Below are positions 11,598 through 59,473 of a stretch of 64,000 nt of DNA, piece after piece. Within the stretch, counting starts at the first letter, position 1. Each line of letters opens with the position of its first letter. Source of the DNA: an uncultured Gammaproteobacteria bacterium (GTDB lineage: Bacteria > Patescibacteriota > Microgenomatia > Levybacterales > GWA1-39-11); NCBI GenBank assembly GCA_964485575.1, contig CAZAJO010000002.1, positions 23,230 to 87,229 on the forward strand, in the 5' to 3' direction. A model generated the notes under the pieces. That model had not been told where the DNA came from and ran no database searches. It was given only the letters and a program-made list of their open reading frames with translations. Made by a program: the position numbers and the translations under genes.

Positions 11598-12659
11598 ATG
11601 CAAAAATTAATAAAAAATAAGTACGCTAATTTCTATCTGAATGCAGCGTCCAAACTTGGTTTAGAATACGTTATTTTGAACGAAAAGGTTGGATTGGCTA
11701 GAATTTTTAACAATGCTACTGAGCTTGATATTAGTTCAAATATTTTGGGTGTTAATACTCAAATAAGCTCAAGCCTGTCAGTAAATAAATCAAAAACATC
11801 TCTGCTCCTTCAGGAAGAGAATTTACCTACACCAAGCTTTAAAATATTCACCAATCAACAGAGAGCCGTTGACTACGCTTCTGATCATTTGCAAAATGGT
11901 ACTCTTGTTGTCATTAAACCGTTAAGCGGATCGCTTTCAATTGGGATAACTGTTAATCCTTCGACAGTTTCTCAAATTAAAAAGGCAGTTGCCGAGGCTT
12001 TTGAAGGAAATTCAATTATCATGATAGAGGAATATATTCCCGGAAGACATTTCAGAATTACAGTGTTTGATGACGAAATAATTGCCGTAACTGAGAGAAT
12101 AGCTGCAAATGTGACATCGAATGGAACAAGTTCTATAGAACAACTTATTATTGAAAAAAACAAAGAAAGAAGAAAATTGGAACTTCCCCCAATTCATTTG
12201 CGCATGAAAGATCTTCACTATCTGAAAAAGGAAAAGATAGAATTGTCCAAAGTATATCCTTCAGGATGCAATATCATTTTACAGTTGGGCTGTGATTTAG
12301 ATATTGGAGGCGAACGTGTAAGAATTGAAAGAGAACTTATCCACCCTGATAATAGCGAACTTTTTAAAAATGCAGCAAAAGTATTGGGCCTTAGATTTGC
12401 GGGCATTGATTACATCTCACCTGATATTTTACTTTCTCACAAAACTATTAAAACGGCTATTAATGAAATAAATAGTGCTCCAGATTCTGATGTTCACTAT
12501 AGAGATACGTATCCAAATGATAATTATGCAGCTGAGCGAATCGTTGAAAAAATATTCAATACAAAAGTCGTATTTGTTAAGGAGAACACGCTAACACTTC
12601 CATTTACTCAATTCTTAACAAGAGTTACTAAAAAGATAAGTGATATTCAGATAAACTAA
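11598..12659 (+). CDS. ATP-grasp family ligase (RimK/cyanophycin-synthetase-like)
   Basis: Central ATP-grasp hallmarks are present: a KTSLLLQEENLPTP segment that fits a linker between N and central domains, a LVVIKPLSGSLSIGI P-loop-like strand, an IIMIEEYIPGRHFRITVFDDEIIAV stretch and a C-terminal LRFAGIDYIS. Confidence 0.5.
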   Translation: MQKLIKNKYANFYLNAASKLGLEYVILNEKVGLARIFNNATELDISSNILGVNTQISSSLSVNKSKTSLLLQEENLPTPSFKIFTNQQRAVDYASDHLQNGTLVVIKPLSGSLSIGITVNPSTVSQIKKAVAEAFEGNSIIMIEEYIPGRHFRITVFDDEIIAVTERIAANVTSNGTSSIEQLIIEKNKERRKLELPPIHLRMKDLHYLKKEKIELSKVYPSGCNIILQLGCDLDIGGERVRIERELIHPDNSELFKNAAKVLGLRFAGIDYISPDILLSHKTIKTAINEINSAPDSDVHYRDTYPNDNYAAERIVEKIFNTKVVFVKENTLTLPFTQFLTRVTKKISDIQIN

Positions 12660-13213
12660 AGTTTTCCTCCACATAATTTTTCTGACCACAAACCTACCCT
12701 CAATCTCTCCGCCTCGATCTGAGCTGATTTGTATTCTTTCTGATGTTTATACGGGGTATCATAAGTGTACTCGTAAGCAAATCCTGACTTTATCATTTCA
12801 AGTCCATAATCAATATTGTTAGGTAGAAAAACATACCGCAAAAGTCTGCCATATTTATCCTTATCCCCTTGCGATGGATCTGATTCTAGTCTAACAGTTT
12901 GGCTTGTCAGTAAACCTTTGGCCTTATCTGAGGCCTCTTTCCCAAAACACTCGACTTTGCGCCGGGGGTCTACAGTTTCTGGTGTATTTATCCCCAAAAC
13001 TCGTACTTTTAGTGTTGAGTTATTAAAAGAAACACTAAATGTGTCTCCATCGACAACTTTTACGACTTTATACACACTTGGGACATTCTGTTTGGGAGCA
13101 TCCCTAACAGACAATACATTCTTTTGGGGGTAATTTTGATTGTAAACTTGAAATCCCAGGAATAGGAGAAAAACAATAGATGATACTAAAAGGCGGATAT
13201 TTTTACGCGACAC
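12656..13213 (-). CDS. secreted/membrane-anchored thermonuclease (staphylococcal nuclease, SNase-like)
   Basis: An N-terminal TM anchor is followed by the SNase fold motifs VVKVVDGDTF...RVLGINTPE...GKEA...YGRLLRYVF. Confidence 0.6.
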   Translation of the reverse strand: MSRKNIRLLVSSIVFLLFLGFQVYNQNYPQKNVLSVRDAPKQNVPSVYKVVKVVDGDTFSVSFNNSTLKVRVLGINTPETVDPRRKVECFGKEASDKAKGLLTSQTVRLESDPSQGDKDKYGRLLRYVFLPNNIDYGLEMIKSGFAYEYTYDTPYKHQKEYKSAQIEAERLRVGLWSEKLCGGKL

Positions 13214-13225
13214 AGAGCCAGTATA

Positions 13226-13714
13226 CTACGAATTGATTGAGAGTATTTTGTAAGAAATTGTACCTTTTGGAGCCTCAAAGGAAGCTTCCTCCCCTACTTT
13301 TTTACCCATAAGCGCGCGCCCTAAAGGCGAATGCTGAGAAATCTTCTTTTCTAATGGATTTGCCTCATAATCTCCCACAATATTAAATACTGTCTTACCA
13401 CCATCACTTTCAACGGTAACTATGCTTCCAATAGATACTTTCCCATCACTTCCCTCAATAATGTCAGCCAATTTTATCTGTATTTCTGTTCGAAAAATCT
13501 GGCTATCTATCGAGCGAAGTCTTGATTTTGCAGCTGTATAAAGACCATTTTCAGACAGATCTCCCATAGCACGAGCTTCAGCAAGATTTTTGACTGCCTG
13601 AGGTCTATCTTTTATAAGGTTGGCTAGTTCTTCATTCAGTTTTTCAAATCCTTCTTTTGTAATGGGGATACGCTTTATCCGGGAATTCATAACACTTGTC
13701 TTTAGTTTGCTCAT
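13226..13714 (-). CDS. greA: transcription elongation factor GreA
   Basis: The N-terminal coiled-coil carries GDLSENGLY (compare GDLSENAEY) and is followed by a C-terminal FKBP-like domain. 162 aa. Confidence 0.7.
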   Translation of the reverse strand: MSKLKTSVMNSRIKRIPITKEGFEKLNEELANLIKDRPQAVKNLAEARAMGDLSENGLYTAAKSRLRSIDSQIFRTEIQIKLADIIEGSDGKVSIGSIVTVESDGGKTVFNIVGDYEANPLEKKISQHSPLGRALMGKKVGEEASFEAPKGTISYKILSINS

Positions 13715-13767
13715 AAATAAGTTGTATCTATTATATCCTATTTTTGGTATAATGAAACTTATAGTAT

Positions 13768-13795
13768 GACACGTGTGCCCGCGTGTCGTTTTTTT
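13768..13795 (+). promoter_or_regulatory. GC-rich hairpin plus U-tract in the typA 5' leader (possible attenuator)
   Basis: GACACG tgtgcccg CGTGTC is followed by TTTTTTT. It lies 8 nt before the typA ATG (13804) and after an extended -10 TGGTATAAT (13745-13753). Confidence 0.35.
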
Positions 13796-13803
13796 ATTTT
13801 AAT

Positions 13804-15639
13804 ATGGATACACAAATTCGAAACATTGCCATAATCGCCCACGTTGATCACGGGAAAACTACTCTTGTGGATTCAATGTTAAAACAAACCCACACGTTCC
13901 GAGACAATCAAAAGGAAATGACCGAAACTCTCATCATGGACTCAAATGACCTGGAAAAAGAGAAAGGTATTACCATTCTTTCAAAAAACAACTCGGTAAA
14001 ATACAAGGATGTTAAGATCAATATCATTGACACTCCAGGACATGCTGACTTTGGAGGAGAAGTTGAGCGCATCCTTAATATGGCAGATGGAGCTATTCTT
14101 CTTGTTGATGCTGTTGAAGGTCCACTTCCCCAAACAAAATTTGTACTTAAAAAGGCTTTAGAGCAACATTTGAAGATCATTCTTCTTATCAACAAAATTG
14201 ACAAAAAAGATGCCAGACCACAAGAGATCATACAAGAGGCAGAAGGACTTTTCTTAGAACTTGCTACTCACGATGATCATCTCAACTTTAAGACTTTGTA
14301 TGCGGTTGGGCGTGACGGGAAGGCATTTGATACTTTGCCTGAAAATTACACTCAAGACACACAGGGTGATTTATCTCCACTTTTTGAAGCTATAGTGTCT
14401 GAAATCCCAAACAGCGTTAAGGACGAAGACCAGCCTTTCCAAATGCTTATTTCTACCCTTGATACTGACCCACACGTAGGAAAGATCTGTATCGGAGCCG
14501 TAACAAGAGGAAAACTCAAAAAGGGAGATATGGTTTCTTTAGTTGATGAGGACAAGGTCATTGGTACAAGCCGTGTACAAAAACTCTTTACAAGCGTCGG
14601 GCTTGACCGTGTTGAGGTTGAAGAGGTATCTTCAGGTGACATAGTTGCAATCGCCGGAATCCCACAGCTTACCATAGGTCAGACTGTGACAGATCCATCT
14701 ACGCCTGTCAGCCTTCCAAAAATTCATGTCGAAGATCCGACCATCAGAATAACCATTGGACCCAACACAAGCCCTTTCTTGGGTAAAGAAGGAAAATTGC
14801 TTTCTTCCTCTCAGATAAAAGATAGACTCTTAAAAGAAAAAGAGACCAATTTGGGTCTTAAGATTGAGCAGGCAGAAGGGTCATCAAATTTTGCAGTTTC
14901 AGGACGTGGTGAGCTTCATCTTGCAGTTTTGATTGAAAACATGCGTCGTGAAGGATTTGAACTAGAAATATCAAAGCCACAGGTTATCTACAAAACAGTT
15001 GATGGAAAGGTCCATGAACCATACGAAGAAGTCACAATTGATGCAGGACAGGAATATATAGGTGCGATCAGTGAGGAATTTGCCAAAAGAAAAGCAACAC
15101 TCATCAATATGTCACCGGAACCTGGTAATATCACCCGGTTTGTATACAAAGTATCAAGTAAAAATTTGCTTGGTATCAGAAATATTTTACTGACAAAGAC
15201 TCGTGGAACGGTTGAACTTAACACGTTCTTTTTAGGGTACTTTCCCAAAGAAGAATCTGCAGTTGAAGAACAAAGAAATGGAGTACTTATTTCATTTGAT
15301 TCAGGTAATGCTCTTTCTTATGGACTTGAGAATGCTCAAGAGCGTGGAACGTTATTTATCAAACCAAATACACCTGTATATGAGGGTATGATAATCGGAA
15401 TTTCGACTCGGGACCGCGATATGGAGATAAACGTGACAAAAGGAAAGAAAATGACGAATGTCAGATCTTCAACGTCTGATTTCTCTGTTCAGATAAATAC
15501 TCCTGTCGAGCTTTCATTGGAACAGGCTTTGGACTTTATCAACGCTGATGAGCTTTTAGAAGTAACTCCGCAAAGCATCAGACTTCGAAAGAGATATCTT
15601 TCAGCAGTTGAGCGGAAAATAAGCACACGAAAGAATTAA
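13804..15639 (+). CDS. typA: translational GTPase TypA/BipA
   Basis: The G1 motif AIIAHVDHGKTTL and the G3 motif DTPGHADF are present. A length of about 610 aa and EF-G-like C-terminal domains fit. The ATG at 13804 is preferred over the track GTG at 13783, which lies inside the leader hairpin. Confidence 0.8.
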   Translation: MDTQIRNIAIIAHVDHGKTTLVDSMLKQTHTFRDNQKEMTETLIMDSNDLEKEKGITILSKNNSVKYKDVKINIIDTPGHADFGGEVERILNMADGAILLVDAVEGPLPQTKFVLKKALEQHLKIILLINKIDKKDARPQEIIQEAEGLFLELATHDDHLNFKTLYAVGRDGKAFDTLPENYTQDTQGDLSPLFEAIVSEIPNSVKDEDQPFQMLISTLDTDPHVGKICIGAVTRGKLKKGDMVSLVDEDKVIGTSRVQKLFTSVGLDRVEVEEVSSGDIVAIAGIPQLTIGQTVTDPSTPVSLPKIHVEDPTIRITIGPNTSPFLGKEGKLLSSSQIKDRLLKEKETNLGLKIEQAEGSSNFAVSGRGELHLAVLIENMRREGFELEISKPQVIYKTVDGKVHEPYEEVTIDAGQEYIGAISEEFAKRKATLINMSPEPGNITRFVYKVSSKNLLGIRNILLTKTRGTVELNTFFLGYFPKEESAVEEQRNGVLISFDSGNALSYGLENAQERGTLFIKPNTPVYEGMIIGISTRDRDMEINVTKGKKMTNVRSSTSDFSVQINTPVELSLEQALDFINADELLEVTPQSIRLRKRYLSAVERKISTRKN

Positions 15640-15659
15640 GTTGAACCTCAGTTGGGTAT

Positions 15660-16598
15660 TTGATACCATTAACTCACATGAAAAGAATATTCCCCACCCT
15701 TTTACTGTCTGCTGCCTTTTTACTGATTTCTATTACAAGAGTCCATGCTCAAGATTTTTTTAATCCTGACCCATTGATTCCGGAAGTTGCTACTGATTCA
15801 GCATCTGCTTCAGAGTCGGCAAAAGAGGCCGCAGCAATCGCAAAGATACAGCAACAAGACGTTACGCGTCCGGAAGGACCTGAGGATGCCGCAGCACTTA
15901 ATTTATTCAAGCAAAGACCAGCTGACAAACTCAATTGGTACAATCTCATGGCATTTCTCATACAGTCTTCCGTGAAAGCCGGTGTGCCTTCAAGAACTGT
16001 CATTCTTATTCTGCTTTTACCTATGCTTGCAACAATTATTGCCTTTATTAGACACGTTATTGGTCTTCCGAGTATCGGAATGCTTGTACCAGTTGCGCTT
16101 TCTATCACTCTTCTATCCACAGGTATCACAGCAGGGCTGATACTGTTGGCAACAATTATTTTCTCTTCAACTGTGGCAAGAATTCTACTTAAGAAGGTTC
16201 GCATCATGCAGCTTCCCAAAATGGCTTTCTCGATGTTCATTGTATCTATCTTTCTTTTCCTTACGCTAACTGTATCTGCTATGGCAGGGATTTTGGTAGT
16301 AAAGCAGCTCTCTATATTCCCGGTACTTCTACTTATACTTTTGTCTGAGCAAATCATTGCGGTACAACAAGAGAGAAGCGCTCAGGAAATGGCAATCATT
16401 TCAATGGTGACTTTTGCCATAGGTATCTTAGGATTTCTACTACTCTCGTCTATCCATCTGAGAAATACAATCCTTCTCTACCCTGAATTCATACTGATAC
16501 TCATTCCACTTAATATAGTGGTTGGTAGGTATTTTGGCCTTCGACTCATGGAATATTTCAGGTTTTCCTCAATAATGCGCCATGGCAGTAAGTCGTAA
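15660..16598 (+). CDS. signal peptide + 7TM membrane protein (7TM partner of the ATP-grasp/retropepsin amidoligase cassette)
   Basis: A signal peptide and a low-complexity acidic linker are followed by about 7 hydrophobic helices. The 3' end overlaps the downstream ATP-grasp gene by 17 nt. Confidence 0.5.
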   Translation: MIPLTHMKRIFPTLLLSAAFLLISITRVHAQDFFNPDPLIPEVATDSASASESAKEAAAIAKIQQQDVTRPEGPEDAAALNLFKQRPADKLNWYNLMAFLIQSSVKAGVPSRTVILILLLPMLATIIAFIRHVIGLPSIGMLVPVALSITLLSTGITAGLILLATIIFSSTVARILLKKVRIMQLPKMAFSMFIVSIFLFLTLTVSAMAGILVVKQLSIFPVLLLILLSEQIIAVQQERSAQEMAIISMVTFAIGILGFLLLSSIHLRNTILLYPEFILILIPLNIVVGRYFGLRLMEYFRFSSIMRHGSKS

Positions 16599-17886
16599 CA
16601 TTTTGGGCATGAACGCCCGCAATTTTCTCTATATCCGCCGCTACAATTCACCGGATGCAAAAAAGATAGCGGATGATAAATTAGAGACCAAAAACACGCT
16701 CATTCAAAATGGGATAAAAACTCCTACGCTTTTTTCTATCTTCTATGACCGGGATTCTATCAAAAATTTCGTATGGACAGACCTTCCGGAAAGAGGATTT
16801 GTCATAAAACCTGCAAGAGGATACGCCGGGGCAGGAATACTTGCAATCAGAAAGTGGGACGGCGAGGTAGGGACAACTGCAAATGGACAAACCTACACCA
16901 TAAAACAGCTTGAGTCACACATCCTTGATATTTTGGAGGGTGCGTATTCACTGAAATTTCTACCCGATAATGCTTTTATTGAAGAACGTCTCCACCCGCA
17001 TCCGTTCTTTAAAAAACTGACCGGATATGGAATTCCTGACATGAGGGTTATTGTTTTTAATAGGATCCCTGTTATGGCCATGATCCGTCTCTCGACAGAA
17101 GAGTCACATGGTAAGGCCAACCTGCATCAAGGAGCTATCGGATTTGGAATAGATATCAGAACTGGTATTACGACTCATGCAATTCTATACGACCAACAGA
17201 TATCCTATATCCCTAACACAAAAATTAAGACGAGGGGAATCAAAATTCCAAATTGGGAGGAGGTATTACTCCTTTCATCCAAAACGCAGGAGATCTCAGG
17301 GCTTGGATACGCTGGAATTGATATTGTATTTGATGGACAACAAGGTCCAATGGTCCTTGAGGTAAATGCACGTCCTGGCCTTTCAATTCAAAATGCCAAT
17401 AGAGCATCTTTGAGATCAAGGCTTGAGCGCGTTGAAAATATCATCATCCCTACCCCGGAACGTGGGGTTGAGATAGCTAAAAATCTTTTTACAGAAAGCT
17501 TCTCTGAAAAAGTCAGCATATCTCCCAAAATTTTGACCATTATCCAAGAAGTTACTTTTTATAGAAATGGTGAACCTATTACTGTCAAGGCAAAGCTTGA
17601 TACTGGTGCTTTTAGAACATCAATTGATAGAAAATTTGCAGAACTTTTAGATCTTCAGATCCTCAACGAAAAAGTCTTTGTAAAGTCAGCGAGCGGTGAA
17701 AGCTTTAGACCAACAGCAAAGACTTCTTTTATATTAGGAGGCAAAAAAATAAATACTGTGATTTCGATAGTAGACAGATCAAACCTTAAGTACCCCGTAA
17801 TTATTGGGCACAGGGATATGAAGGACTTTCTGATAAGACCGGTAAATGACCAACCGTACGATCCTGAAGATGATGTGGAAGAATAG
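16582..17886 (+). CDS. fusion protein: alpha-L-glutamate-ligase-like ATP-grasp + C-terminal retropepsin-like (putative ATP-dependent zinc protease) domain
   Basis: N-terminal RimK-related ATP-grasp: VIKPARGYAGAGI, DMRVIVF, a Gly-rich ATP loop. C-terminal aspartic-protease-like: KAKLDTGAFRTSID...VIIGHRDMKDF. Confidence 0.55.
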   Translation: MAVSRNILGMNARNFLYIRRYNSPDAKKIADDKLETKNTLIQNGIKTPTLFSIFYDRDSIKNFVWTDLPERGFVIKPARGYAGAGILAIRKWDGEVGTTANGQTYTIKQLESHILDILEGAYSLKFLPDNAFIEERLHPHPFFKKLTGYGIPDMRVIVFNRIPVMAMIRLSTEESHGKANLHQGAIGFGIDIRTGITTHAILYDQQISYIPNTKIKTRGIKIPNWEEVLLLSSKTQEISGLGYAGIDIVFDGQQGPMVLEVNARPGLSIQNANRASLRSRLERVENIIIPTPERGVEIAKNLFTESFSEKVSISPKILTIIQEVTFYRNGEPITVKAKLDTGAFRTSIDRKFAELLDLQILNEKVFVKSASGESFRPTAKTSFILGGKKINTVISIVDRSNLKYPVIIGHRDMKDFLIRPVNDQPYDPEDDVEE

Positions 17887-17897
17887 ATAAAAGAAGA

Positions 17898-18257
17898 CTA
17901 TTTCCCTTTTTGAGCTTTGATTCCGAGTGTCTTTTTAGAAACCTTTGTTACTTTCTTGACTGCTTTTTTACGAGACTTTTTCTTTTTGATCTCAATATTT
18001 TCAAGCTTTACGATAGATGGAGCATTTAAAGGAAAAATCCGGTCAACGTCCACTCCATCAATGAATTGTCTGACAGTTACCATCTTGTTGTCTCCAGCTC
18101 CTCTGGATTTCATTATCTTTCCCTGAAAAGCTACGATCCTTTCTTTTTTACCTTCAACAAATTTTTGAAAAACCTTTACAGCCATACCCGCTCGAAGATC
18201 AAGCGCTGGTTCGACAATTGATTCCGTCTTTTTTTCCATAATCGTTGTATTATACAC
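17898..18257 (-). CDS. rplS: 50S ribosomal protein L19 with Lys-rich C-terminal extension
   Basis: The L19 core RIVAFQGKIMKSRGAGDNKMVTVRQ is present. Confidence 0.7.
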   Translation of the reverse strand: MYNTTIMEKKTESIVEPALDLRAGMAVKVFQKFVEGKKERIVAFQGKIMKSRGAGDNKMVTVRQFIDGVDVDRIFPLNAPSIVKLENIEIKKKKSRKKAVKKVTKVSKKTLGIKAQKGK

Positions 18258-18282
18258 AAATGAGGCTCAAAGAACAAGATTC

Positions 18283-19950
18283 TTATTTACTCGCGGCTTT
18301 GAGGAATTCGACAAAAAGAGGATGAGGACTCATTGGTCTACTTTTATATTCCGGGTGTCCCTGGGTCCCCATAAAGAATGGGTGCGTGCTTTTTGGAAGC
18401 TCAATAATCTCAACTAAGTTTTCGACAACAGAGCGGGCTGATATAACAAGCCCTGCTTTTTCAATCTCAGGTGCAAACTCATTATTGAACTCGTATCGGT
18501 GTCTATGTCTTTCAGATGTAAGACCGGTCTTTTCATTCTTCATGAGTTTTGCTTTTTTGTATATTTCAAAAGCCCGCGTCCCTTTTTTGACTATCGCATC
18601 CCAACTACCTAGCCTCATCGTACCCCCATATGCACGTCGAGCCATAAGCTCTTTTTGATTTTCGATCATGTGTATCACCGGGTGTTTTGATTTAGGGTCA
18701 TTTTCGGTAGTATTTGCGTCCTTCCACCCCAAAATGTGTCTAGCAAACCCAACGACTGCAAGTTGCATCCCGTAACAAAGCCCCAAATACGGAATCTTTT
18801 TGTCTAAAGCGTACTCAGCAGCTTGTATCATGCCTTCTGACCCTCTCTCTCCCCAACCAATCGGCACTATAATTCCATCAGGCTTTCCTATCGCAGACTC
18901 TGACCCTTCTTTTTCTACTTTTTCAGCATTTACCCAACGGGTTACCACCTCAACATTTGCTCCCCAGGAAGCATGCTCAATAGCATCAAGTAGTGCTGCG
19001 TATGAATCTCTCAACTGGTACTCCCCTGTCCCAAAATATTTTCCAACGATTGCAATCTCAATTGTTGAGGCTTTCGGCTTTTTTATGTTCTCAACCATTT
19101 TTTCCCATTGTGAAATAGCTGGTTTTTTTGCAGGAAGTCCTAATTTAAGAAAAATTCTTTTCTCAAGCCCTTGCTTGTGTAAAATCATTGGGATTTCATA
19201 AACAGTCTCAAGATCCGGATTTGAGATAATGTCCTCTGGGTGCATATTGCAAAAAAGCGCGAAGCGGTCACGTCTTCTCTGATCCAAATATCTTGTAGAT
19301 CGGGCGATAATAAAGTCAGGCTGAATCCCCATGGAATTTAAAGTTCTTACCGATAACTGGGTGGGTTTTGTCTTGGGTTCTCCCAAATGTTGAGGGGTTG
19401 GAACATAACTTACATGGACATGAACAACGTCTCCAGGATTTTTGAGCGTCATGATTCGGGAGGCTTCATAGTAAAAAATATTTTGATACTCACCTGCTGT
19501 TCCACCAAGTTCTATGACGACTATGTCAGCTTTACTTTCTTTTGCTACATGATTGATCCTCGCGATAATCTCATCTGTTATGTGGGGAATAGCCTCTACA
19601 TCCTCTCCGTTGTATTCAAATCGTCTTTCCCGATCTATAACTGTCTGATAAATTCTCCCCATCGTGACAAAATTATTTTTGCCCATATCCTCATTGAGGA
19701 ATTTTTCGTATGACCCGATATCCATGTCTGCTTCCGTTCCATCTTCACAAAGAAATGGATCCCCATGCTCTATCGGATTTATTGTTCCAGCATCCAAATT
19801 AAGATAGTTTTCAAATTTTATGGGAGCTATTTTGTACCCTGCTGATTTTAGAAGAAATGAGATTGAAGAAGCTGTGAGACCTTTTCCTATTCCGGATATT
19901 ACTCCTCCGGACACGAAAATAAATTTTGTTCTCTTTTTTGTGAGCGGCAC
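18283..19950 (-). CDS. pyrG: CTP synthase
   Basis: The N-terminal synthetase KFIFVSGGVISGIGKG and the C-terminal GATase GLCYGMQLAV with conserved His/Glu are present. 555 aa. Confidence 0.85.
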   Translation of the reverse strand: MPLTKKRTKFIFVSGGVISGIGKGLTASSISFLLKSAGYKIAPIKFENYLNLDAGTINPIEHGDPFLCEDGTEADMDIGSYEKFLNEDMGKNNFVTMGRIYQTVIDRERRFEYNGEDVEAIPHITDEIIARINHVAKESKADIVVIELGGTAGEYQNIFYYEASRIMTLKNPGDVVHVHVSYVPTPQHLGEPKTKPTQLSVRTLNSMGIQPDFIIARSTRYLDQRRRDRFALFCNMHPEDIISNPDLETVYEIPMILHKQGLEKRIFLKLGLPAKKPAISQWEKMVENIKKPKASTIEIAIVGKYFGTGEYQLRDSYAALLDAIEHASWGANVEVVTRWVNAEKVEKEGSESAIGKPDGIIVPIGWGERGSEGMIQAAEYALDKKIPYLGLCYGMQLAVVGFARHILGWKDANTTENDPKSKHPVIHMIENQKELMARRAYGGTMRLGSWDAIVKKGTRAFEIYKKAKLMKNEKTGLTSERHRHRYEFNNEFAPEIEKAGLVISARSVVENLVEIIELPKSTHPFFMGTQGHPEYKSRPMSPHPLFVEFLKAASK

Positions 19951-20919: not shown

Positions 20920-21546
20920 TTACGGTCTTGGAAGATTTAATACATTGCCTGAAAATATAAGTCCTGGATTTTCCAACTTATTCGTATTTGCAATGTCTGT
21001 CCATCTATACCCATCTCCATATGCTCTGACAGCGATATCCCAAAGATTATCATCCCTAACAACAGTGTAAGTTGCTCCAGTTATACTTGTGGCTCCAACA
21101 GGTGCTGCACCAGTTGTTGGTGGTGCCATAGTCTGTTGAGTCGACTCTTGCTGCATTACTACAGTTTTGTCGACAGTTGGAATAATAAGTTTGGTCCCGC
21201 TAGACAGCGCTTCTGGGCTTGTTATGTTATTTGCTTCCGCAATAAGGTGCCATTTAAATCCGTCGTTGTAGGATTTTTCTGCGATACTCCATAACGTTTC
21301 GCCTTCTTGTACCGTGTAACTGTTGTCATTGATTTTCTGAACTGTATTTTGTGTCATTGCTGCCTCATCATCAATTTGAGCTCTATTTTGCGAAAGAGAT
21401 TTGATGCCAAGCGCAATCACGACAAAAAGTACTACGACGGTGACGATCCCGTAAATCAAACTCTTGTAAGAATCTGATCCCTTCATAAGCGTTGTGACAC
21501 TAAATGATTCGTCTAATATTGATTGTTTTGTTTTCTTTGTAAGCAT
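20920..21546 (-). CDS. membrane-anchored protein with two LysM peptidoglycan-binding domains
   Basis: An N-terminal TM is followed by two LysM repeats: YTVQEGETLWSIAEKSY...GTKLIIP and YTVVRDDNLWDIAVRAY...GNVLNLP. The ORF was trimmed to the Met downstream of tRNA-Asp. Confidence 0.6.
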   Translation of the reverse strand: MLTKKTKQSILDESFSVTTLMKGSDSYKSLIYGIVTVVVLFVVIALGIKSLSQNRAQIDDEAAMTQNTVQKINDNSYTVQEGETLWSIAEKSYNDGFKWHLIAEANNITSPEALSSGTKLIIPTVDKTVVMQQESTQQTMAPPTTGAAPVGATSITGATYTVVRDDNLWDIAVRAYGDGYRWTDIANTNKLENPGLIFSGNVLNLPRP

Positions 21547-21616
21547 ACTATTACTCCTCTCTGGGCAAGAATGTGGCAGTGGACAGCGGGCATTGTGGCA
21601 GTGGCAGGTACTTTTG

Positions 21617-21690
21617 CGGGGTGAACGGGACTCAAACCCGCGACCTCTTCCGTGACAGGGAAGCGCTCTAATCAACTGAGCTACCACCCC
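21617..21690 (-). tRNA. tRNA-Asp (anticodon GTC)
   Basis: Reverse complement: GGGGTGGTAGCTCAGTTGATTAGAGCGCTTCCCTGTCACGGAAGAGGTCGCGGGTTTGAGTCCCGTTCACCCCG. The anticodon loop is CTGTCAC. Confidence 0.75.
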
Positions 21691-25203: not shown

Positions 25204-26484
25204 ATGCGTCACTCACTTCTCGCGGGAAAGGTAGTTGCTAAAGTGTCCAAAATGCAAGGTAGATCCGGGTCTACATGGCCGGGTCACGTAGCTTTAAAGA
25301 CAGATAAAGCCTTTATCAGAAAAGTAATTTCCAAAAACCCAGATCTTAAAGTCATTCTCGTAGCAGGGACAAATGGCAAGACAACGACTACAAAGGCTCT
25401 TTGTCATATATTGCAGACGAATGATATTTCAGTCATTACTAACAATGCAGGTGCAAATCTCCTCAATGGTCTTGCCTCTACTCTTGTTCTAAAATCCGAT
25501 CTGACAGGAAAAATAAAAGAAAAGGTATTAATTTTTGAAGTAGATGAAAACTCATTGCCCCTCGTTCTCTCTGAAATACCTAATCCATCAGCCATAATTT
25601 TACTAAATCTTTTCAGAGATCAATTAGATAGATATGGGGAAGTAAATGCAACTTCCGAGAAATGGACCACCTCCATAAAAAAACTTTCTGAAAAAACGCT
25701 CGTTGTCGCAAACTCAGACGACCCACAAATTGCACATGTTGCAAGCTTTGCAAAAAACAAAGCTTATTTTACCATCGACAATACCTTTAAAAAGGGGACA
25801 TTACTTTCCCATGCGGTTGATTCAACAACCTGTCCTGTTTGTAACCACTCCCTAACCTACTCTGGTATCTCTTATTCTCATTTGGGTAACTACAAATGCA
25901 GCAATTGTCAATTCTCAAATCCAAAAGCAAAATACTATTCTTTCAAAACAAATCTTATGGGATCGTACAACATATATAACCTAACATCTGTCATTCTTAC
26001 AATAGACAAAATATTTGGGATACTACCCTTCACTTCAATAGAATCATTAATATCGTTCAAGGCGGCATTTGGCAGACAAGAAATTATTGAAGTTGAAGGA
26101 AAACGAGTAATGTTATTACTCTCCAAAAACCCTACCGGATTTAATGAAAGCCTAAAAGTAGCTATTGAGAACAAAAGTAGTACACTTCTTATTTTGCTGA
26201 ACGATAGGATCCCAGATGGACGGGATATTTCATGGATATGGGATGTAGATTTTGAGATGCTGACTGAAAAAGAAATAACGGTAATTGTTTCTGGAGACCG
26301 CTCATATGATATGGCAAATAGACTTTTGTTTGCGAATGTCACCCATGAAGTATTTGAAAACTTTGAGACGGCTTACGAAGAAAGCTTGAAACAAACACCC
26401 ATTGGCAAAATACTTACAATTTTACCAACTTACTCTGCCATGCTTGAAGTCAGAAAACTAATCAGTGGAAAGGCAATCTTATGA
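25204..26484 (+). CDS. murT: lipid II isoglutaminyl synthase, Mur-ligase-like subunit MurT
   Basis: The Mur ligase P-loop VAGTNGKTTTTKAL is present. A MurT-specific Cys4 zinc ribbon reads CPVCNHSL...CSNCQF. A C-terminal DUF1727-like region follows. The N-terminal region aligns well with Staphylococcus MurT as recalled from established knowledge. Confidence 0.75.
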   Translation: MRHSLLAGKVVAKVSKMQGRSGSTWPGHVALKTDKAFIRKVISKNPDLKVILVAGTNGKTTTTKALCHILQTNDISVITNNAGANLLNGLASTLVLKSDLTGKIKEKVLIFEVDENSLPLVLSEIPNPSAIILLNLFRDQLDRYGEVNATSEKWTTSIKKLSEKTLVVANSDDPQIAHVASFAKNKAYFTIDNTFKKGTLLSHAVDSTTCPVCNHSLTYSGISYSHLGNYKCSNCQFSNPKAKYYSFKTNLMGSYNIYNLTSVILTIDKIFGILPFTSIESLISFKAAFGRQEIIEVEGKRVMLLLSKNPTGFNESLKVAIENKSSTLLILLNDRIPDGRDISWIWDVDFEMLTEKEITVIVSGDRSYDMANRLLFANVTHEVFENFETAYEESLKQTPIGKILTILPTYSAMLEVRKLISGKAIL

Positions 26485-27242
26485 ACTATAAATTAAAAAT
26501 TGCTTGGCTGTATCCGGAACTTATGTCTACATATGGAGACAGAGGTAACATAATTGTTTTGCAAAAAATTGCCGAAGACAACGGAATTGAAGTTGAAATT
26601 GTTCGAATCAACCAAACTTCTGACTCCGAACTACTAACCACTTGTAATCTAATATTTATGGGTGGTGCTCAAGATCTACAACAAGAAATTGTCAATAAAG
26701 ATCTACTTGAGAATAAAGGGGAAGTTCTAAAACAAATGATTGAAGATGGTACTCCTGGACTTTACATCTGTGGGGCTTTCCAATTCCTGGGAAATTACTA
26801 TAAAGATGCATACGGAACAAAAATCGAGGGACTCCGCATTTTTGATATGCATACTGAAAGTTATAAAAACAAACCACGCCTCATCGGGAATTGCGTAATC
26901 TCCCAAACTAAACCCTCTACCCTAAACGCTAAACCCTTCCTTGTAGGTTTTGAGAACCATGGAGGGAGAACATATCTCTCTGACAAATCGCAGGCTTTTG
27001 CGAAAGTTGAGCTAGGGCATGGCAACAATGGAACTGACAAAACTGAAGGAATACACTATAAAAATTCAATCGGAACATATCTACATGGACCTATTTTACC
27101 TTCAAACCCAGAGCTAGCTGTCTACCTGTTGGAACTTGCTTACGAAAAAAAATACGGGGAAAAAATCACTCTGAAATTTGAAGATGTCCTCTCCAAAAAA
27201 GCAAAAACTGCCATTCTAAAAAGACTTGGCGCTAAACTTTAA
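26481..27242 (+). CDS. gatD: lipid II isoglutaminyl synthase, glutaminase subunit GatD (CobB/CobQ-like GATase)
   Basis: The catalytic Cys sits in the LYICGAFQFLG context. The N-terminal DRGNIIVLQ and a 4-nt overlap with murT fit the family. Confidence 0.75.
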   Translation: MNYKLKIAWLYPELMSTYGDRGNIIVLQKIAEDNGIEVEIVRINQTSDSELLTTCNLIFMGGAQDLQQEIVNKDLLENKGEVLKQMIEDGTPGLYICGAFQFLGNYYKDAYGTKIEGLRIFDMHTESYKNKPRLIGNCVISQTKPSTLNAKPFLVGFENHGGRTYLSDKSQAFAKVELGHGNNGTDKTEGIHYKNSIGTYLHGPILPSNPELAVYLLELAYEKKYGEKITLKFEDVLSKKAKTAILKRLGAKL

Positions 27243-43828: not shown

Positions 43829-44560
43829 ATGATCCGCAGAAGAATACGTTCCTCAAGACTATCAAGAACTAGTGAAAAGCAAAATAAAAGACAAGCTCTT
43901 TTGTTCACGATTGGTATTGTCGTTCTCCTCGTGATTCTAATTCAGTTTGGACCAATCCTAATAAACATTTTTGGCAATGTTGTATATACTCTTCGAGGTG
44001 GAGACAAGAGTGATACACAAGTGGTAGGACAAGAGCTACTTCAACCACCAATCCTTATTGGGGTTGCCGAGGCAACTCAAAGTGCAACAATCTCCTTTAG
44101 CGGTGTCGCACCGGACAAAAGTGGAACAGTCGAACTGTACGTGAATGATGACCTTGTGGATGAAATTGAGGTCCATAGTAAAACTGACTTTCAAATCAAT
44201 AGTTTGCCATTGAAAAAGGGCGTAAATATTGTAAAGGCTCGCTTTGTTAAAGGAGACAAGACTAGTTCATTCACTCAAGATTATCTCGTCAATTACCTCA
44301 ACGACAAACCAAAACTTGAGGTCTCTTTTCCGAATGATGGTGGAACATACACAAAAGCAGACAAAAATATTACTGTTACAGGAATGACAGACCCTGACAA
44401 CACTGTTTCTGTCAATTCATTTAGAGCAATAGTTGATACATCTGGCAAATTTTCATACCAGCTTCAATTGAACGACGGTGAGAATCAGATAACGATTGAT
44501 GCACAAAATCCTGCAGGAGGTACCACTCAGAAGCAATTGAAGGTTACTTATCAGCCTTAG
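43829..44560 (+). CDS. membrane-anchored protein with bacterial Ig-like/β-sandwich repeats
   Basis: An N-terminal basic region and TM are followed by repeats such as VELYVNDDLVDEIEV and NQITIDAQNPAGG, typical of Big-like domains. Confidence 0.4.
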   Translation: MIRRRIRSSRLSRTSEKQNKRQALLFTIGIVVLLVILIQFGPILINIFGNVVYTLRGGDKSDTQVVGQELLQPPILIGVAEATQSATISFSGVAPDKSGTVELYVNDDLVDEIEVHSKTDFQINSLPLKKGVNIVKARFVKGDKTSSFTQDYLVNYLNDKPKLEVSFPNDGGTYTKADKNITVTGMTDPDNTVSVNSFRAIVDTSGKFSYQLQLNDGENQITIDAQNPAGGTTQKQLKVTYQP

Positions 44561-45737
44561 ACCCAATACCTATTACCCTTGCCATTAAAAACCAAAATGT
44601 CAGGATAGGCGTATAAAAAAGTACGTTTGTAAATAAGCTCCCTACGATAAGTGCTATCATGGTCGGAAACAGTATAACTATTTTCTTTTTCTGATGTGTT
44701 AGTATTTCCTTTCCTAAAAGGAACCATGAGAATATATACACAATTACTCCTATGCTTCCTGTTGTCACGAAAGCAAATAGAAAACTGTTGTCGGTACCAG
44801 CATCAGCATTGCTCCATGAAGCCCCTTTTTCATTTCTGTAACCATATCTCAACTGAGCATACCGAAATGCGTTAAACCCAACTCCACCTATCGGGTTTTT
44901 TGAGATTATATCTATGGATTCTTTCACTGAATCAATCCGCTTACTTGTAGATGCTGTTCTTAAAGGATTTAGTCCTTCAACGTGAGTATCTGAGATAAGA
45001 AACAAAAAAGCAATCATAAGAAGTCCAACAAATAAAACTTGCTTAATTTTTTTTGTTATGACTGCATAGCTTACTATCCCAACAAGAAGAGAAACCAGAG
45101 CTGTTCTTGAAAATGTAAGATATATGGCAATAACAGTACAAAATGCAAGAATTATTTCTTTATAAACTGCTTCAAATTTGCCACTTCCTATGCGAGTGAA
45201 TAGATAGAAAAAAAACATGACAAAAAATACTCCGGCAAAATTAGGGTCCAGAAATGAAGAAAACATTCTGTAGAGATGGTTGTCCCAGCCGAGGTAAAAT
45301 AACTTGTAAAGATCATAGTAAAAGAAAAACTGCCAATATCCCATCAGGATGATGATTATTCCAGAAAATAACATCACAGACCCTATGCGTTTTAAAAATG
45401 AAGGACTTAGTGGAGCGACAAAAATTGATAGATAGGAAAGATACCGCAGGGGGTAAAGAATTGATTGGATGAGTTTAACGTCAGTATAGAAAAGACAATT
45501 TAATAAAAGACTTACTACACCAATGAACACAAATATTAACTGAAACCTAACAAAATTATTCTTTGGAATTTTCCTTTTTTTTATGAAATAAACCGCTGTA
45601 AGTAGGAAAATAAGCCCAACTAAAATATCTTGAGGAACCACGTAAACGTTTGTCGACAATCTTAACCTTAACAATAATCCGATGGGAAAACTAATAACAA
45701 GTAGCAACGTTAACTTTTGAATTATTTTTTCTATCAT
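44544..45737 (-). CDS. O-antigen ligase/Wzy-like polytopic membrane protein
   Basis: About 10 TM segments with a large periplasmic loop and a YLTFSRTALVSLLVG region typical of the Wzy_C family. Confidence 0.45.
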   Translation of the reverse strand: MIEKIIQKLTLLLVISFPIGLLLRLRLSTNVYVVPQDILVGLIFLLTAVYFIKKRKIPKNNFVRFQLIFVFIGVVSLLLNCLFYTDVKLIQSILYPLRYLSYLSIFVAPLSPSFLKRIGSVMLFSGIIIILMGYWQFFFYYDLYKLFYLGWDNHLYRMFSSFLDPNFAGVFFVMFFFYLFTRIGSGKFEAVYKEIILAFCTVIAIYLTFSRTALVSLLVGIVSYAVITKKIKQVLFVGLLMIAFLFLISDTHVEGLNPLRTASTSKRIDSVKESIDIISKNPIGGVGFNAFRYAQLRYGYRNEKGASWSNADAGTDNSFLFAFVTTGSIGVIVYIFSWFLLGKEILTHQKKKIVILFPTMIALIVGSLFTNVLFYTPILTFWFLMARVIGIGSKADK

Positions 45738-47290: not shown

Positions 47291-47414
47291 AATCCCTTTC
47301 TACAAATCAGGTGGTAATAATACAGAATTATTATTATAATTGTCCAAAGAACAAACAGCCCTAGTACTTTTTTCATATCAGTATTATAACAGCTACAAAA
47401 CTGTTCAAAGCTAG

Positions 47415-48122
47415 ATGAATATAAAAACTGCAGTCATTATTCCCGTATATAACGAGGGGGATAATTTATTAATCCTTATTCCAGATATTTATAAATACAA
47501 TAAAGGTCTTACTCTTTTTGTTGTGGATGACAATTCGACTGATAAAACTGGAACGATCATAAAAAAAATGAGGGCTATGTATCCTATTTTCTATATCAAA
47601 AGGAAAAGCAAACTTGGGAGAGGGACTGCCGTGATAGAAGGCTTTAGACAGGCGTACTTGAAGGGGGGTTTTGAGATATTTGTTGAGATGGATGCAGATC
47701 TTTCCCATAATCCAGAAGAGCTAAAAGGCCTGATAGGCTCAGTGGATAACAAAACTATGGTTCTTGCTTCGCGCTATATTCCAAAAAGCAAAATTTTAGG
47801 GATATCAAAAGGTAGAAAGATAATAAGCAAAATTGTAAATGGTTTTGAAAAAAGACTCTTTGGTCTCCCTATTCATGATTATACGAATGGGTTTAGGGCA
47901 TATTCCAGAGATGCGGTTTCAGTTCTGATAGGACATAAGTATAAAAGCTCAGGATTTGCAACTATTGCAGAGTCGACATACTTACTTCACAAGAAAGGGT
48001 TCAGACTAAAAGAAAAGCCTACAATATTTATTAATAGAAGAATTGGAGGATCAAAAGCCGATCTGCATGAGATGTATATTTCATTGAGAGACCTTATCCG
48101 TGTCCGCTTTTCTAAGATATAA
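47415..48122 (+). CDS. GT2 glycosyltransferase, Dpm1-like polyprenyl-phosphate sugar synthase
   Basis: AVIIPVYNEGDNL, VVDDNSTDKTGTI, a DAD motif and ASRY fit the GT-A/Dpm1 signature. Confidence 0.6.
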   Translation: MNIKTAVIIPVYNEGDNLLILIPDIYKYNKGLTLFVVDDNSTDKTGTIIKKMRAMYPIFYIKRKSKLGRGTAVIEGFRQAYLKGGFEIFVEMDADLSHNPEELKGLIGSVDNKTMVLASRYIPKSKILGISKGRKIISKIVNGFEKRLFGLPIHDYTNGFRAYSRDAVSVLIGHKYKSSGFATIAESTYLLHKKGFRLKEKPTIFINRRIGGSKADLHEMYISLRDLIRVRFSKI

Positions 48123-51359: not shown

Positions 51360-51381
51360 AATATTATTCTATCTTATTTAT

Positions 51382-52074: not shown

Positions 52075-52108
52075 TTTTGTATAATATCATACAAACACAG
52101 TTTAGTTT

Positions 52109-55800: not shown

Positions 55801-55849
55801 TATTTCAAGCAGTTTCGCAATTTTAATCTTATTTGATATAATACCAACA

Positions 55850-56560: not shown

Positions 56561-56562
56561 AG

Positions 56563-57849: not shown

Positions 57850-57928
57850 AGAAAAAAGATAGAATCAAAAGATTATAGCACAAAAGAAAATTGCTAATTT
57901 GGCTATTTAAGTTACCAAATATATCACG

Positions 57929-59461: not shown

Positions 59462-59473
59462 CGGTTCATTATA

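What the first reader, a model, noticed from the sequence alone, without database searches (positions are those of the whole stretch)
15660..17886. ATP-grasp amidoligase fused to a retropepsin-like protease, translationally coupled to a 7TM membrane protein
The 434-aa protein joins a RimK/alpha-L-glutamate-ligase-like ATP-grasp domain to a C-terminal aspartic-protease-like domain (KAKLDTGAFRTSID...VIIGHRDMKDF). It overlaps the stop of an upstream gene for a signal-peptide protein with 7 TM segments. Comparative genomics (Iyer/Aravind-type analyses of amidoligases) predicts ATP-grasp plus 7TM plus 'ATP-dependent zinc protease' trios as a peptide-tagging or peptide-maturation system. These are normally separate genes. 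Here ligase and peptidase are a single polypeptide, so this is a compact, experimentally uncharacterised variant. The substrate is unknown; no obvious small precursor-peptide gene is adjacent.
Basis: partly seen in the sequence, partly recalled or inferred. Interest (0 to 1): 0.6.

Follow-up and report, generated by a model that had tools for sequence, protein, structure and literature searches.

The report
Ligase-protease fusion with membrane partner
A Levybacteria-type (candidate phyla radiation) genome carries a compact two-gene version of the recently described Rlo stress-tolerance system, in which the ATP-dependent glutamate-type ligase and the HIV-protease-like peptidase, normally separate proteins on opposite sides of the membrane, are one cytoplasmic protein; it is real and widely conserved, but it is a variant of a known system.

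Summary
ORF 16582-17886 (434 aa) is an RloC/TIGR02291-type ATP-grasp ligase (PF14397, E=5e-69) joined to a C-terminal retropepsin domain. That domain has an invariant DTGA motif, and its model best matches RloA, Lpg0085, Ddi1 and HIV protease. The ORF overlaps by 17 nt the stop of a gene for a signal-peptide plus 7TM protein (PF14402, the membrane half of RloB, without the transglutaminase ectodomain).

The pair is adjacent in all 15 related loci that include upstream DNA. In the six distant loci compared gene by gene, nothing else is conserved, and there is no precursor-peptide ORF.

The parent system is no longer uncharacterised. RloABC (P. aeruginosa, 2025) and RimB/RimK, including an opposite-order RimBK hybrid, build and cut poly-glutamate. 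The residues RloA uses to bind poly-Glu are invariant here.

The fusion is common, not unique: more than 119 close homologues exist. Sister architectures include ligase + degenerate retropepsin + MATCAP carboxypeptidase, 7TM + ligase, and retropepsin + 7TM + ligase.

Most likely function: a membrane-docked enzyme that synthesises and trims acidic (poly-Glu) chains, with the protease moved to the cytoplasmic side. No biochemistry was tested here.

Verdict: new variant of a known kind, moderate interest.

The parts
15678..16598 (+). Gene for the RloB-like 7TM membrane protein (306 aa from ATG 15678; the mechanical ORF starts at TTG 15660)
   Evidence: ORF. PF14402 E=2e-21 over aa 115-305; NF052267 RloB matched only over its C-terminal positions 312-507. 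Homologues are 300-330 aa and carry PF14402 only. Gene callers give 306 aa.
15678..15749 (+). Predicted signal peptide MKRIFPTLLLSAAFLLISITRVHA (inferred cleavage after VHA)
   Evidence: Hydrophobic peak at aa 10-28 of the TTG-start ORF; sequence. No SignalP-type tool was run.
15750..15992 (+). Short acidic, low-complexity ectodomain in the position of RloB's inactive transglutaminase domain
   Evidence: No Pfam hit in this stretch. Relatives carry PKD domains (L016, L017) or PF14400 / Transglut_core (L019, P0388) at this position.
15993..16538 (+). Seven-helix membrane core
   Evidence: Seven hydropathy peaks. Conserved across 34 aligned CPR, RloB and fused forms: invariant G135, P144, P221; near-invariant R131, E230, P275-E276.
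16524..16565 (+). Conserved cytoplasmic C-terminal motif G-x-x-x-G-x-R-L-x-E-x-x-R-F (GRYFGLRLMEYFRF), a candidate docking site for the ligase
   Evidence: R295, E298 and F302 are invariant in 34/34 sequences. In 7TM+ATP-grasp fusions this motif is followed after a short linker by the ligase N-terminus.
16582..16598 (+). 17-nt overlap between the 7TM stop codon and the ligase start codon (ATGGCAGTAAGTCGTAA)
   Evidence: The overlap is kept in L001-L012 but not in L013-L016.
16582..17886 (+). Gene for the 434-aa ATP-grasp ligase / retropepsin fusion protein
   Evidence: AF2 model pLDDT 87.
16582..17481 (+). RloC-type ATP-grasp ligase domain (aa 1-300), with invariant K76, the Gly-rich loop, D247, E260 and N262
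   Evidence: PF14397 233 bits. TIGR02291 292 bits (cutoff 314). Invariant columns. Foldseek top hits are RimK (5zct, 7qys, 4iwx), LysX/ArgX and cyanophycin synthetase.
17482..17529 (+). Interdomain linker (aa 301-316)
   Evidence: pLDDT below 50 at aa 308-314.
17530..17841 (+). Retropepsin (RloA/RimB-like, PF05618) domain, aa 317-420, net basic (17 K/R against 11 D/E)
   Evidence: PF05618 34 bits for the domain alone. Domain model pLDDT 90.5. Foldseek top hits are 2pma, 9g58 (RloA) and 9g59 (RloA2), then Ddi1 and HIV-1 protease. Composition.
17599..17610 (+). Catalytic motif D340-T-G-A343
   Evidence: Translation. D[TS]GA is present in all 119 full-length homologues. It aligns to the DTGA of RloA/RloA2.
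17842..17883 (+). Disordered acidic C-terminal tail VNDQPYDPEDDVEE (7 D/E, 0 K/R), ending in Glu-Glu
   Evidence: Low pLDDT. Tails average 48% D/E in the clade, and 76 of 119 end in -EE. The tail is absent from more distant fused relatives.

Best explanation
This is a two-gene, CPR-type variant of the Rlo system.

The upstream gene encodes an RloB-like membrane protein. It has a cleavable signal peptide, a short acidic ectodomain in place of the inactive transglutaminase, seven helices, and a conserved cytoplasmic C-terminal motif.

The downstream gene encodes a cytoplasmic bifunctional enzyme. Its N-terminal part is an RloC-type ATP-grasp ligase, closest in fold to RimK, the poly-alpha-L-glutamate / protein C-terminal Glu ligase. 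Its C-terminal part is an RloA/RimB-type retropepsin.

Inferred mechanism:
- The ligase, docked on the C-terminal motif of the 7TM protein, uses ATP to add acidic residues (most likely L-Glu). The products would be free chains or chains on a protein or peptide C-terminus.
- The retropepsin domain, active as a homodimer formed between two fusion proteins, cuts long Glu runs. This limits or releases the product.
- The 7TM protein exports the product or positions and regulates the enzyme.

Shown here: domain identities, intact catalytic and poly-Glu-binding residues, obligatory pairing with the 7TM gene, and physical linkage of the modules in sister fusions.

Inferred only: glutamate as the substrate, dimerisation, docking, and export.
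For: Domain assignment. The ligase fold is closest to RimK, then to LysX/ArgX, which also act on C-terminal Glu of a protein. ATP-grasp invariants K76, D247, E260 and N262 are present; the stretch containing D247/E260/N262 aligns to RimK residues 232-268.

Retropepsin fold: top structural matches are Lpg0085, RloA and RloA2, then Ddi1 and HIV protease.

Poly-Glu-binding residues: the invariant K338, D340, R376 and R399 correspond, by motif and spacing, to RloA K46, D48, R114 and R137. K lies two residues before the Asp, and the two Arg are 23 residues apart, in both proteins. RloA-Pa itself was not aligned. In RloA those residues coordinate octa-glutamate, and R114A and R137A strongly reduce cleavage in vitro and fail to rescue the mutant (PMC12239564).

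Pairing: the 7TM gene is directly upstream in every locus that includes upstream DNA, down to 39% ligase identity. In the six distant loci compared gene by gene, nothing else is conserved.

Rosetta-stone fusions: 7TM+ligase, transglutaminase+7TM+ligase, and signal-anchor+retropepsin+7TM+ligase. The same three functions are three adjacent genes in D. psychrophila.

Peptidase fusions: 51 of the top 150 family representatives carry a MATCAP-type domain, confirmed by Pfam for P0245, P0247 and L016. Eukaryotic members of that family process and deglutamylate tubulin tails (abstract of PMC10499314). This points to acidic C-terminal tails as substrates.

Genetics in P. aeruginosa: loss of rloB or rloC suppresses the defects of the protease-less mutant. 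This implies that the protease removes a product of the ligase and membrane protein.
Against: No biochemical activity was measured for this protein or for any RloC; the substrate of RloC is unknown even in Pseudomonas.

The ligase scores just below the TIGR02291 trusted cutoff (292 against 314).

Here the protease is on the cytoplasmic side, whereas RloA is secreted. The Pseudomonas model (product exported, then cut) therefore cannot be transferred unchanged.

Pfam labels PF14397 'sugar-transfer associated', and one relative is fused to a YdjC carbohydrate-deacetylase-like domain. A non-peptide acceptor is therefore not excluded.

The retropepsin motif is degenerate in many relatives, so proteolysis is not essential to every member of the wider family.

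Dimerisation and membrane topology were not tested with dedicated tools.
Confidence: 0.6

Rival explanations
1. Cell-envelope polymer modification. The ligase attaches amino acids to a sugar, teichoic-acid-like or peptidoglycan-precursor acceptor that the 7TM protein handles. The retropepsin domain would be mainly a binding or regulatory module.
For: Pfam's description of PF14397 is 'sugar-transfer associated'. The ligase + retropepsin + YdjC fusion P0250 exists. Rlo mutants show cell-shape and beta-lactam phenotypes, and the authors speculate about peptidoglycan homeostasis. The ectodomains of the 7TM partner are variable (PKD, transglutaminase), as in surface proteins.
Against: The closest folds are peptide or protein C-terminal Glu ligases. 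The catalytic DTGA and the poly-Glu-coordinating K/R residues are invariant in this clade. The dominant extra fusion partner is a peptidase (MATCAP), not a sugar enzyme.
Confidence: 0.15
2. A RimK/RimB-like ribosome modifier. [quoted passage not shown]
For: Both catalytic domains are cytoplasmic, as in RimB/RimK. A RimB-RimK hybrid is known and active. In the close clade the pair lies between the translation genes typA/bipA and rplS.
Against: The ligase belongs to PF14397/TIGR02291, not RimK: TIGR00768 scores 60.7 bits against a cutoff of 143, and PF08443 matches only 37 residues. The domain order is opposite to RimBK. The Rim system is not described as having a membrane partner, whereas here the 7TM gene is always adjacent. 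Synteny with translation genes is lost in L012-L017. The S6 tail of this organism could not be examined because rpsF is not in the window.
Confidence: 0.1
3. A RiPP-like peptide maturation system acting on a genetically encoded precursor peptide (the 'peptide maturation' option of the first reader).
For: ATP-grasp ligases plus proteases plus membrane exporters are typical of graspetide/microviridin-type clusters. PsnB appears among the structural matches, at lower rank.
Against: No small ORF is conserved next to or between the two genes in seven loci compared. Only the two genes co-vary. The graspetide ligase PsnB ranks well below RimK (rank 29, E=7.3e-9, against E=1e-10 for RimK).
Confidence: 0.05

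Closest known systems
RloABC system of Pseudomonas aeruginosa / P. fluorescens (Lormand et al., mBio 2025, PMC12239564; PDB 9G58, 9G59)
   Same: It has the same three modules: a PF14397/TIGR02291-type cytoplasmic ATP-grasp (RloC), a PF14402 7TM membrane protein (RloB) and a PF05618 retropepsin (RloA). The genes are adjacent and on the same strand. The retropepsin shares the DTGA motif and the K/R residues that bind poly-Glu.
   Different: The protease is fused to the C-terminus of the ligase, so it is cytoplasmic, with no signal peptide. The RloB homologue lacks the inactive transglutaminase domain: it is 306 aa against about 500 aa, and NF052267 scores 48 bits against a cutoff of 900. The ligase scores just under the TIGR02291 cutoff. 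The host is a CPR bacterium, whereas 96% of RloB hits were reported to come from Proteobacteria.
RimB/RimK and the RimBK hybrid (DP2392 of Desulfotalea psychrophila; Little et al., JBC 2025, PMC11957791)
   Same: A retropepsin and a glutamate-ligase ATP-grasp lie in one cytoplasmic polypeptide. In RimBK the protease domain is active on poly-glutamylated RpsF.
   Different: The domain order is opposite: RimB is N-terminal to RimK. The ATP-grasp family differs (RimK, PF08443/TIGR00768). The papers read describe no membrane partner for RimBK. It therefore looks like a separate fusion of analogous parts, though no phylogeny was built. RimBK is reported mainly in Flavobacteriales and Rhodobacterales.
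Tubulin tail code enzymes (TTL/TTLL ATP-grasp ligases with MATCAP/TMCP carboxypeptidases)
   Same: The logic is the same: an ATP-grasp ligase adds residues to acidic tails and a peptidase removes them. Sister proteins of the window's enzyme carry a MATCAP (PF08014/TIGR02421) domain. There are weak TTL-model hits to the ligase.
   Different: This is an analogy for the window's protein, which has no MATCAP domain. No cytoskeletal substrate is implied.
ATP-grasp + 7TM/transglutaminase + 'ATP-dependent zinc protease' operons predicted by Iyer, Abhiman, Burroughs and Aravind 2009 (cited as ref. 35 in PMC12239564)
   Same: The trio was verified here in D. psychrophila.
   Different: The paper could not be retrieved. 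Whether it already lists the ligase-protease fusion is unknown to me.

Membership tests
Rlo system (RloABC) | RloC-type ATP-grasp (PF14397; NCBIfam TIGR02291 'alpha-L-glutamate ligase-like') | tested here: inconclusive
   PF14397 scores 233 bits against a cutoff of 31. TIGR02291 scores 292.4 bits against a trusted cutoff of 314.2. Stand-alone relatives score 333-440 bits and other fused forms 269-280. That RloC itself is a TIGR02291 member is inferred from the D. psychrophila trio and was not checked on PA14_41730.
Rlo system (RloABC) | [quoted passage not shown] | tested here: not met
   Only PF14402 is present. NF052267 matches only its positions 312-507, at 48 bits against a cutoff of 900. 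All 120 listed homologues carry PF14402 alone.
Rlo system (RloABC) | RloA: a stand-alone secreted retropepsin with an N-terminal signal peptide | tested here: not met
   The retropepsin domain is aa 317-420 of the cytoplasmic ligase polypeptide, with no signal peptide or TM segment. RloA3 and RloA2 models score 36 and 27 bits against cutoffs of 210 and 250.
Rlo system (RloABC) | Genes adjacent and co-oriented | tested here: met
   There is a 17-nt overlap in the window. The genes are adjacent in every locus that includes upstream DNA.
RimBK hybrid | N-terminal RimB domain followed by a RimK ATP-grasp (PF18030 + PF08443 / TIGR00768) | tested here: not met
   The order is ligase then protease. 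TIGR00768 scores 60.7 bits against a cutoff of 143. PF08443 matches only aa 233-269. There is no Rimk_N hit.
Clan AA retropepsin-like peptidases (PF05618 / DUF785 / RimB-like) | D-T/S-G-A catalytic motif | tested here: met
   D340-T-G-A343. It is present in 119 of 119 full-length homologues.
Clan AA retropepsin-like peptidases (PF05618 / DUF785 / RimB-like) | Retropepsin fold | tested here: met
   The domain model has pLDDT 90.5. Foldseek gives probability 1.00 for 2pma, 9g58 and 9g59 (TM about 0.6), then Ddi1 and HIV-1 protease. PF05618 scores 34 bits against a cutoff of 27.
Clan AA retropepsin-like peptidases (PF05618 / DUF785 / RimB-like) | Homodimer forming the two-Asp active site | not testable with these tools
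   Only monomer prediction was available. There is one DTGA per chain, so dimerisation is required for activity.
Clan AA retropepsin-like peptidases (PF05618 / DUF785 / RimB-like) | Basic substrate channel residues used by RloA for poly-Glu (K46, R114, R137) | tested here: met
   K338, R376 and R399 are invariant. They lie in the blocks that align to RloA/RloA2, and the R-to-R spacing is 23 residues in both. The correspondence to RloA-Pa numbering is by motif and spacing, not by direct alignment.
ATP-grasp carboxylate-amine ligases | ATP-binding Lys, Gly-rich loop and the D/E/N Mg-binding triad | tested here: met
   K76, G80/G83/G85, D247, E260 and N262 are invariant in 65 sequences. The stretch containing the triad aligns to RimK residues 232-268. 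The fold match to RimK has E=1e-10.

The most novel reading that the evidence does not exclude
The enzyme primes on itself. In the window's clade, the disordered acidic tail ending in Glu-Glu resembles the C-terminal Glu-Glu of ribosomal protein S6 that RimK extends (recalled from the RimK literature). The ATP-grasp domain of a neighbouring subunit would elongate this tail. Once about 8 Glu are present, the enzyme's own retropepsin dimer would clip it. This would release poly-glutamate at the mouth of the 7TM protein for export and regenerate the primer. The result would be a self-contained primer/extension/release cycle and a minimal, reconstitutable model for what Rlo systems make.
Probability: 0.12. 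Interest if true: 0.75.

Novelty: new variant of a known kind. Interest (0 to 1): 0.5.

Why it matters

This CPR variant reduces the system to two genes. It places the protease in the same polypeptide and compartment as the ligase. That argues that the protease's substrate is the ligase product itself, rather than an unrelated periplasmic protein, and it offers a simpler target for in vitro reconstitution.

The architectures found around it add to this picture: protease inside, protease outside, protease degenerate and joined by a MATCAP-type carboxypeptidase, and ligase fused to the 7TM protein. Together they point to a widespread bacterial 'add and trim acidic tails' module. It extends into CPR lineages, beyond the mostly proteobacterial range reported for RloB.

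Tried and rejected
- **Iyer et al. 2009:** the paper could not be retrieved by PMC id or PubMed id. Its predictions are cited only second-hand.
- **Candidate substrate ORFs:** an all-against-all comparison of ORFs of 60 aa or more in seven loci found only the two genes shared by all. ORFs of 20 aa or more in the intergenic gaps of L013, L015 and L016 are not conserved.
- **Acidic -EE tail as a family-wide feature:** rejected. It is confined to the clade at 58% identity or more; more distant fused relatives have short, often basic tails.
- **Promoter and terminator scan of 13000-18600:** promoter-like sites are fewer than in shuffles (8 against 13.2). No terminator-like site lies between typA, the 7TM gene and the ligase gene. 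Transcription-unit boundaries remain unknown.
- **Shine-Dalgarno check:** no obvious Shine-Dalgarno-like sequence lies before either start codon by eye. 'Translational coupling' rests on the overlap alone.
- **Literature searches:** searches for the Pfam accessions, and for MATCAP together with ATP-grasp and bacterial, found nothing relevant.
- **AFDB fold search:** it was unavailable.
- **Full-length model against PDB:** the Foldseek search returned only ATP-grasp hits in the top 50. A domain-only model was therefore made for the C-terminal part.
Full report
**Observation**

The window carries two same-strand ORFs as described: 15660-16598 (312 aa from TTG) and 16582-17886 (434 aa from ATG). 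They overlap by 17 nt, ATGGCAGTAAGTCGTAA.

The upstream ORF matches Pfam PF14402, '7 transmembrane helices usually fused to an inactive transglutaminase' (E=2e-21). It matches only the C-terminal 196 positions of NCBIfam's RloB model.

Hydropathy shows an N-terminal signal-like segment (MKRIFPTLLLSAAFLLISITRVHA|QD), an acidic low-complexity stretch of about 80 aa, and seven hydrophobic peaks. Homologues are 300-330 aa. Gene callers on contigs that carry the identical downstream protein start the gene at the ATG at 15678, giving 306 aa.

The downstream ORF matches PF14397 over aa 13-286 (E=4.9e-69). It matches TIGR02291, 'alpha-L-glutamate ligase-like protein', at 292 bits, just under the cutoff of 314. 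Its last 120 residues match PF05618, at 34 bits for the domain alone against a cutoff of 27, together with weaker clan-AA models.

The fusion is not an artefact. The identical protein occurs on at least 23 contigs. All 119 full-length homologues returned (58-99% identity) have the same length and domains.

**The two catalytic domains look functional**

In an alignment of 65 diverse homologues, the ATP-grasp hallmarks are invariant: K76, the Gly-rich loop, D247, E260 and N262. So is the retropepsin block A337-K338-x-D340-x-G342-A343 (T341 is conserved in at least 90% of sequences), together with R376, R399 and G409.

The full-length AlphaFold model (pLDDT 87) has a ligase domain whose best PDB matches are RimK. 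Next come LysX/ArgX and cyanophycin synthetase.

A model of aa 316-434 alone (pLDDT 90.5) matches best Lpg0085 (2pma), P. fluorescens RloA (9g58) and P. aeruginosa RloA2 (9g59). Ddi1 and HIV-1 protease follow.

A profile of the domain aligns to RloA and RloA2 in two blocks: AKlDTGA and RP...DRS..YP..G. K338, R376 and R399 fall where RloA has K46, R114 and R137. K lies two residues before the catalytic Asp, and the two Arg are 23 residues apart, in both proteins.

In RloA those residues coordinate an octa-glutamate substrate, and R114A and R137A strongly reduce cleavage in vitro and fail to rescue the mutant (PMC12239564).

**Context and conservation**

Eighteen related loci were recovered from MAGs. 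Those with informative names are Levybacteria/Levyibacteriota, Microgenomates or Patescibacteria. A 7TM homologue is named Daviesbacteria.

In every locus that includes upstream DNA, the 7TM gene lies directly upstream of the fusion gene. This includes L012-L017, where the fusion is only 39-57% identical and the surrounding genes differ.

An all-against-all ORF comparison of the window region and six distant loci finds only these two genes shared by all. The intergenic gaps of L013, L015 and L016 hold no conserved small ORF.

The typA-7TM-ligase-rplS-pyrG synteny is confined to the close clade. The gene overlap is kept in L001-L012 but not in L013-L016.

**What is known**

In Desulfotalea psychrophila, the genes for PF05618 (256 aa), PF14400+PF14402 (504 aa) and PF14397 (320 aa) are consecutive.

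This system was named Rlo in 2025:
- RloA1-3 are secreted retropepsins that cut runs of 8 or more Glu.
- RloB is the transglutaminase-7TM inner-membrane protein.
- RloC is the cytoplasmic ATP-grasp.
- Deleting rloB or rloC suppresses the osmotic, biofilm and antibiotic defects of the protease-less mutant.

The related cytoplasmic pair RimB/RimK adds and removes Glu on ribosomal protein S6 and makes poly-alpha-glutamate. A natural RimB-RimK hybrid, with the protease at the N-terminus, is proteolytically active.

The window's protein differs from that hybrid in three ways. The domain order is opposite. The ligase belongs to the RloC family, not the RimK family: TIGR00768 scores 61 bits against a cutoff of 143. 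It also always has a 7TM partner.

**Family-wide architectures**

A search of 1.84 billion cluster representatives gave 433 relatives at E<=1e-30. Classification of the best 150 with domain HMMs built here gave these groups (examples confirmed by Pfam):
- 45 stand-alone ligases, of which the four tested pass the TIGR02291 cutoff;
- 47 ligase + retropepsin proteins, counting split domain hits as one domain;
- 29 ligase + retropepsin-like + MATCAP/QEGLA metallocarboxypeptidase;
- 20 more ligase + MATCAP proteins whose middle region no longer matches the retropepsin HMM;
- 8 7TM + ligase, of which P0388 also carries an N-terminal transglutaminase core;
- one signal-anchor + retropepsin + 7TM + ligase (P0375).

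Pfam scans also show the ligase fused to other partners: a ligase + retropepsin + YdjC protein (P0250) and a ligase + TPR protein (P0386).

In P0375 the protease lies on the outer side of the membrane, as RloA does. In the window's protein it is on the inner side.

In 7TM + ligase fusions, the invariant C-terminal motif of the 7TM domain (G.RL.E..RF; R295, E298 and F302 in 34/34) runs after a short linker into the ligase N-terminus. This supports an N-out/C-in topology and direct contact between the two window proteins.

The catalytic motif D[TS]G[AS] is kept in all 119 close homologues. It is kept in 35 of 48 more distant two-domain forms. It is kept in only 3 of 49 MATCAP fusions classified.

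**Mechanism**

The best-supported reading is a membrane-docked enzyme that builds and trims acidic chains.
- The RloC-type ligase adds Glu (inferred from fold and family).
- The fused retropepsin, as a dimer (inferred), cuts long Glu runs. This is supported by the conserved poly-Glu-binding residues.
- The 7TM protein exports the product or positions the enzyme (inferred).

Because ligase and protease are one cytoplasmic polypeptide, the protease's substrate is most simply the ligase's own product.

One clade-specific feature may bear on this. The protease domain is net basic (17 K/R against 11 D/E). It is followed by a disordered 14-residue tail with 7 D/E and no K/R, ending in Glu-Glu. In the clade, tails average 48% D/E, and 76 of 119 end in -EE (23 of 65 in the diverse set).

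Among the 65 non-overlapping ORFs called in the window, it is the only one with such a tail. The tail could be a primer or a pseudo-substrate. It is absent from more distant fused relatives, so it is not a defining feature of the family.

**Rivals**

- Envelope-polymer modification. In favour: the Pfam label, the YdjC fusion and the Rlo cell-shape phenotypes.
- S6 modification as in Rim. In favour: the cytoplasmic location and neighbouring translation genes. Against: ligase family, the obligatory 7TM partner and loss of synteny in distant loci.
- RiPP maturation. Against: no conserved precursor ORF.

**Verdict**

The system is now partly characterised elsewhere, and the fusion is common in its lineage. 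It is a new variant of a known kind. Its main value is that it constrains models of the Rlo system and gives a minimal two-gene version for reconstitution.

Noticed in passing
window 11598-12659 (+): This is a stand-alone 353-aa ATP-grasp most similar to the ligase core of cyanophycin synthetase (NF010623 E=1.7e-48, matching positions 195-475 of 871) and to GshAB/NAGGN-type ligases. It is conserved at the same place in L001 and L006. A 27%-identical homologue lies about 3 kb from the gene pair in the distant locus L015 (10322-11356). It may be a second amino-acid ligase linked to the system, or a coincidence.
   Followed up: partly
L016 1723-4083; also P0245, P0247 and about 49 representatives: These are triple fusions of RloC-type ligase + retropepsin-like domain + MATCAP/QEGLA metallocarboxypeptidase (PF08014, TIGR02421). 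In 46 of 49, the D[TS]G[AS] motif of the middle domain is lost (for example ARMEPEN in L016). The retropepsin domain appears to degenerate where a carboxypeptidase is present.
   Followed up: partly
protein P0375 (657 aa; no locus): This is an all-in-one protein: signal-anchor helix + retropepsin (AKIDTGA intact) + 7TM + ATP-grasp. Its protease is on the outer face of the membrane, opposite to the window's arrangement.
   Followed up: partly
L014 7292-8176; L017 7420-8304 and 8305-9297: Extra ATP-grasp genes lie directly downstream of the fusion gene in two distant loci. The 294-aa product in L014 is RimK-type (PF08443 plus a below-threshold Rimk_N match), and the 294-aa ORF at L017 7420-8304 clusters with it by BLAST. 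A further 330-aa ATP-grasp follows in L017.
   Followed up: no
L016 71-1501; L017 4425-6005: The 7TM partner carries N-terminal PKD domains instead of a transglutaminase or a low-complexity ectodomain. The L016 protein ends in ...KHAEE.
   Followed up: no
L020-L022 (e.g. L020 3597-4670), compared with window 18257-18283: Contigs that encode the identical fusion protein carry a 357-aa gene with no Pfam hit between rplS and pyrG. The window has only 25 nt there. This is an insertion/deletion difference between very close strains.
   Followed up: no
L001, L003-L010 and L018 record titles: These MAG records are titled 'uncultured Gammaproteobacteria bacterium'. Their loci nevertheless encode a fusion protein 84-98% identical to the window's, close to the 88% shown by loci named Candidatus Levyibacteriota, and most share the window's gene order. 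The titles look like placeholder or wrong taxonomy.
   Followed up: no
window 20920-21687 (-) and 21616-21690 (-): The mechanical 255-aa ORF for a LysM protein begins inside tRNA-Asp (21616-21690). Gene callers on a near-identical contig give 208 aa, so the real start is downstream.
   Followed up: partly
window 25204-27242 (+): This is a MurT-like (Mur_ligase_M + MurT_C) and GatD-like (GATase_3) gene pair, judged from Pfam labels on the matching contig L020. It indicates amidation of the peptidoglycan stem-peptide glutamate in this organism.
   Followed up: no
window 44000-64000: G+C drops from about 0.40 to 0.33-0.37 over the last 20 kb of the window. The gene content of this stretch was not examined.
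   Followed up: no
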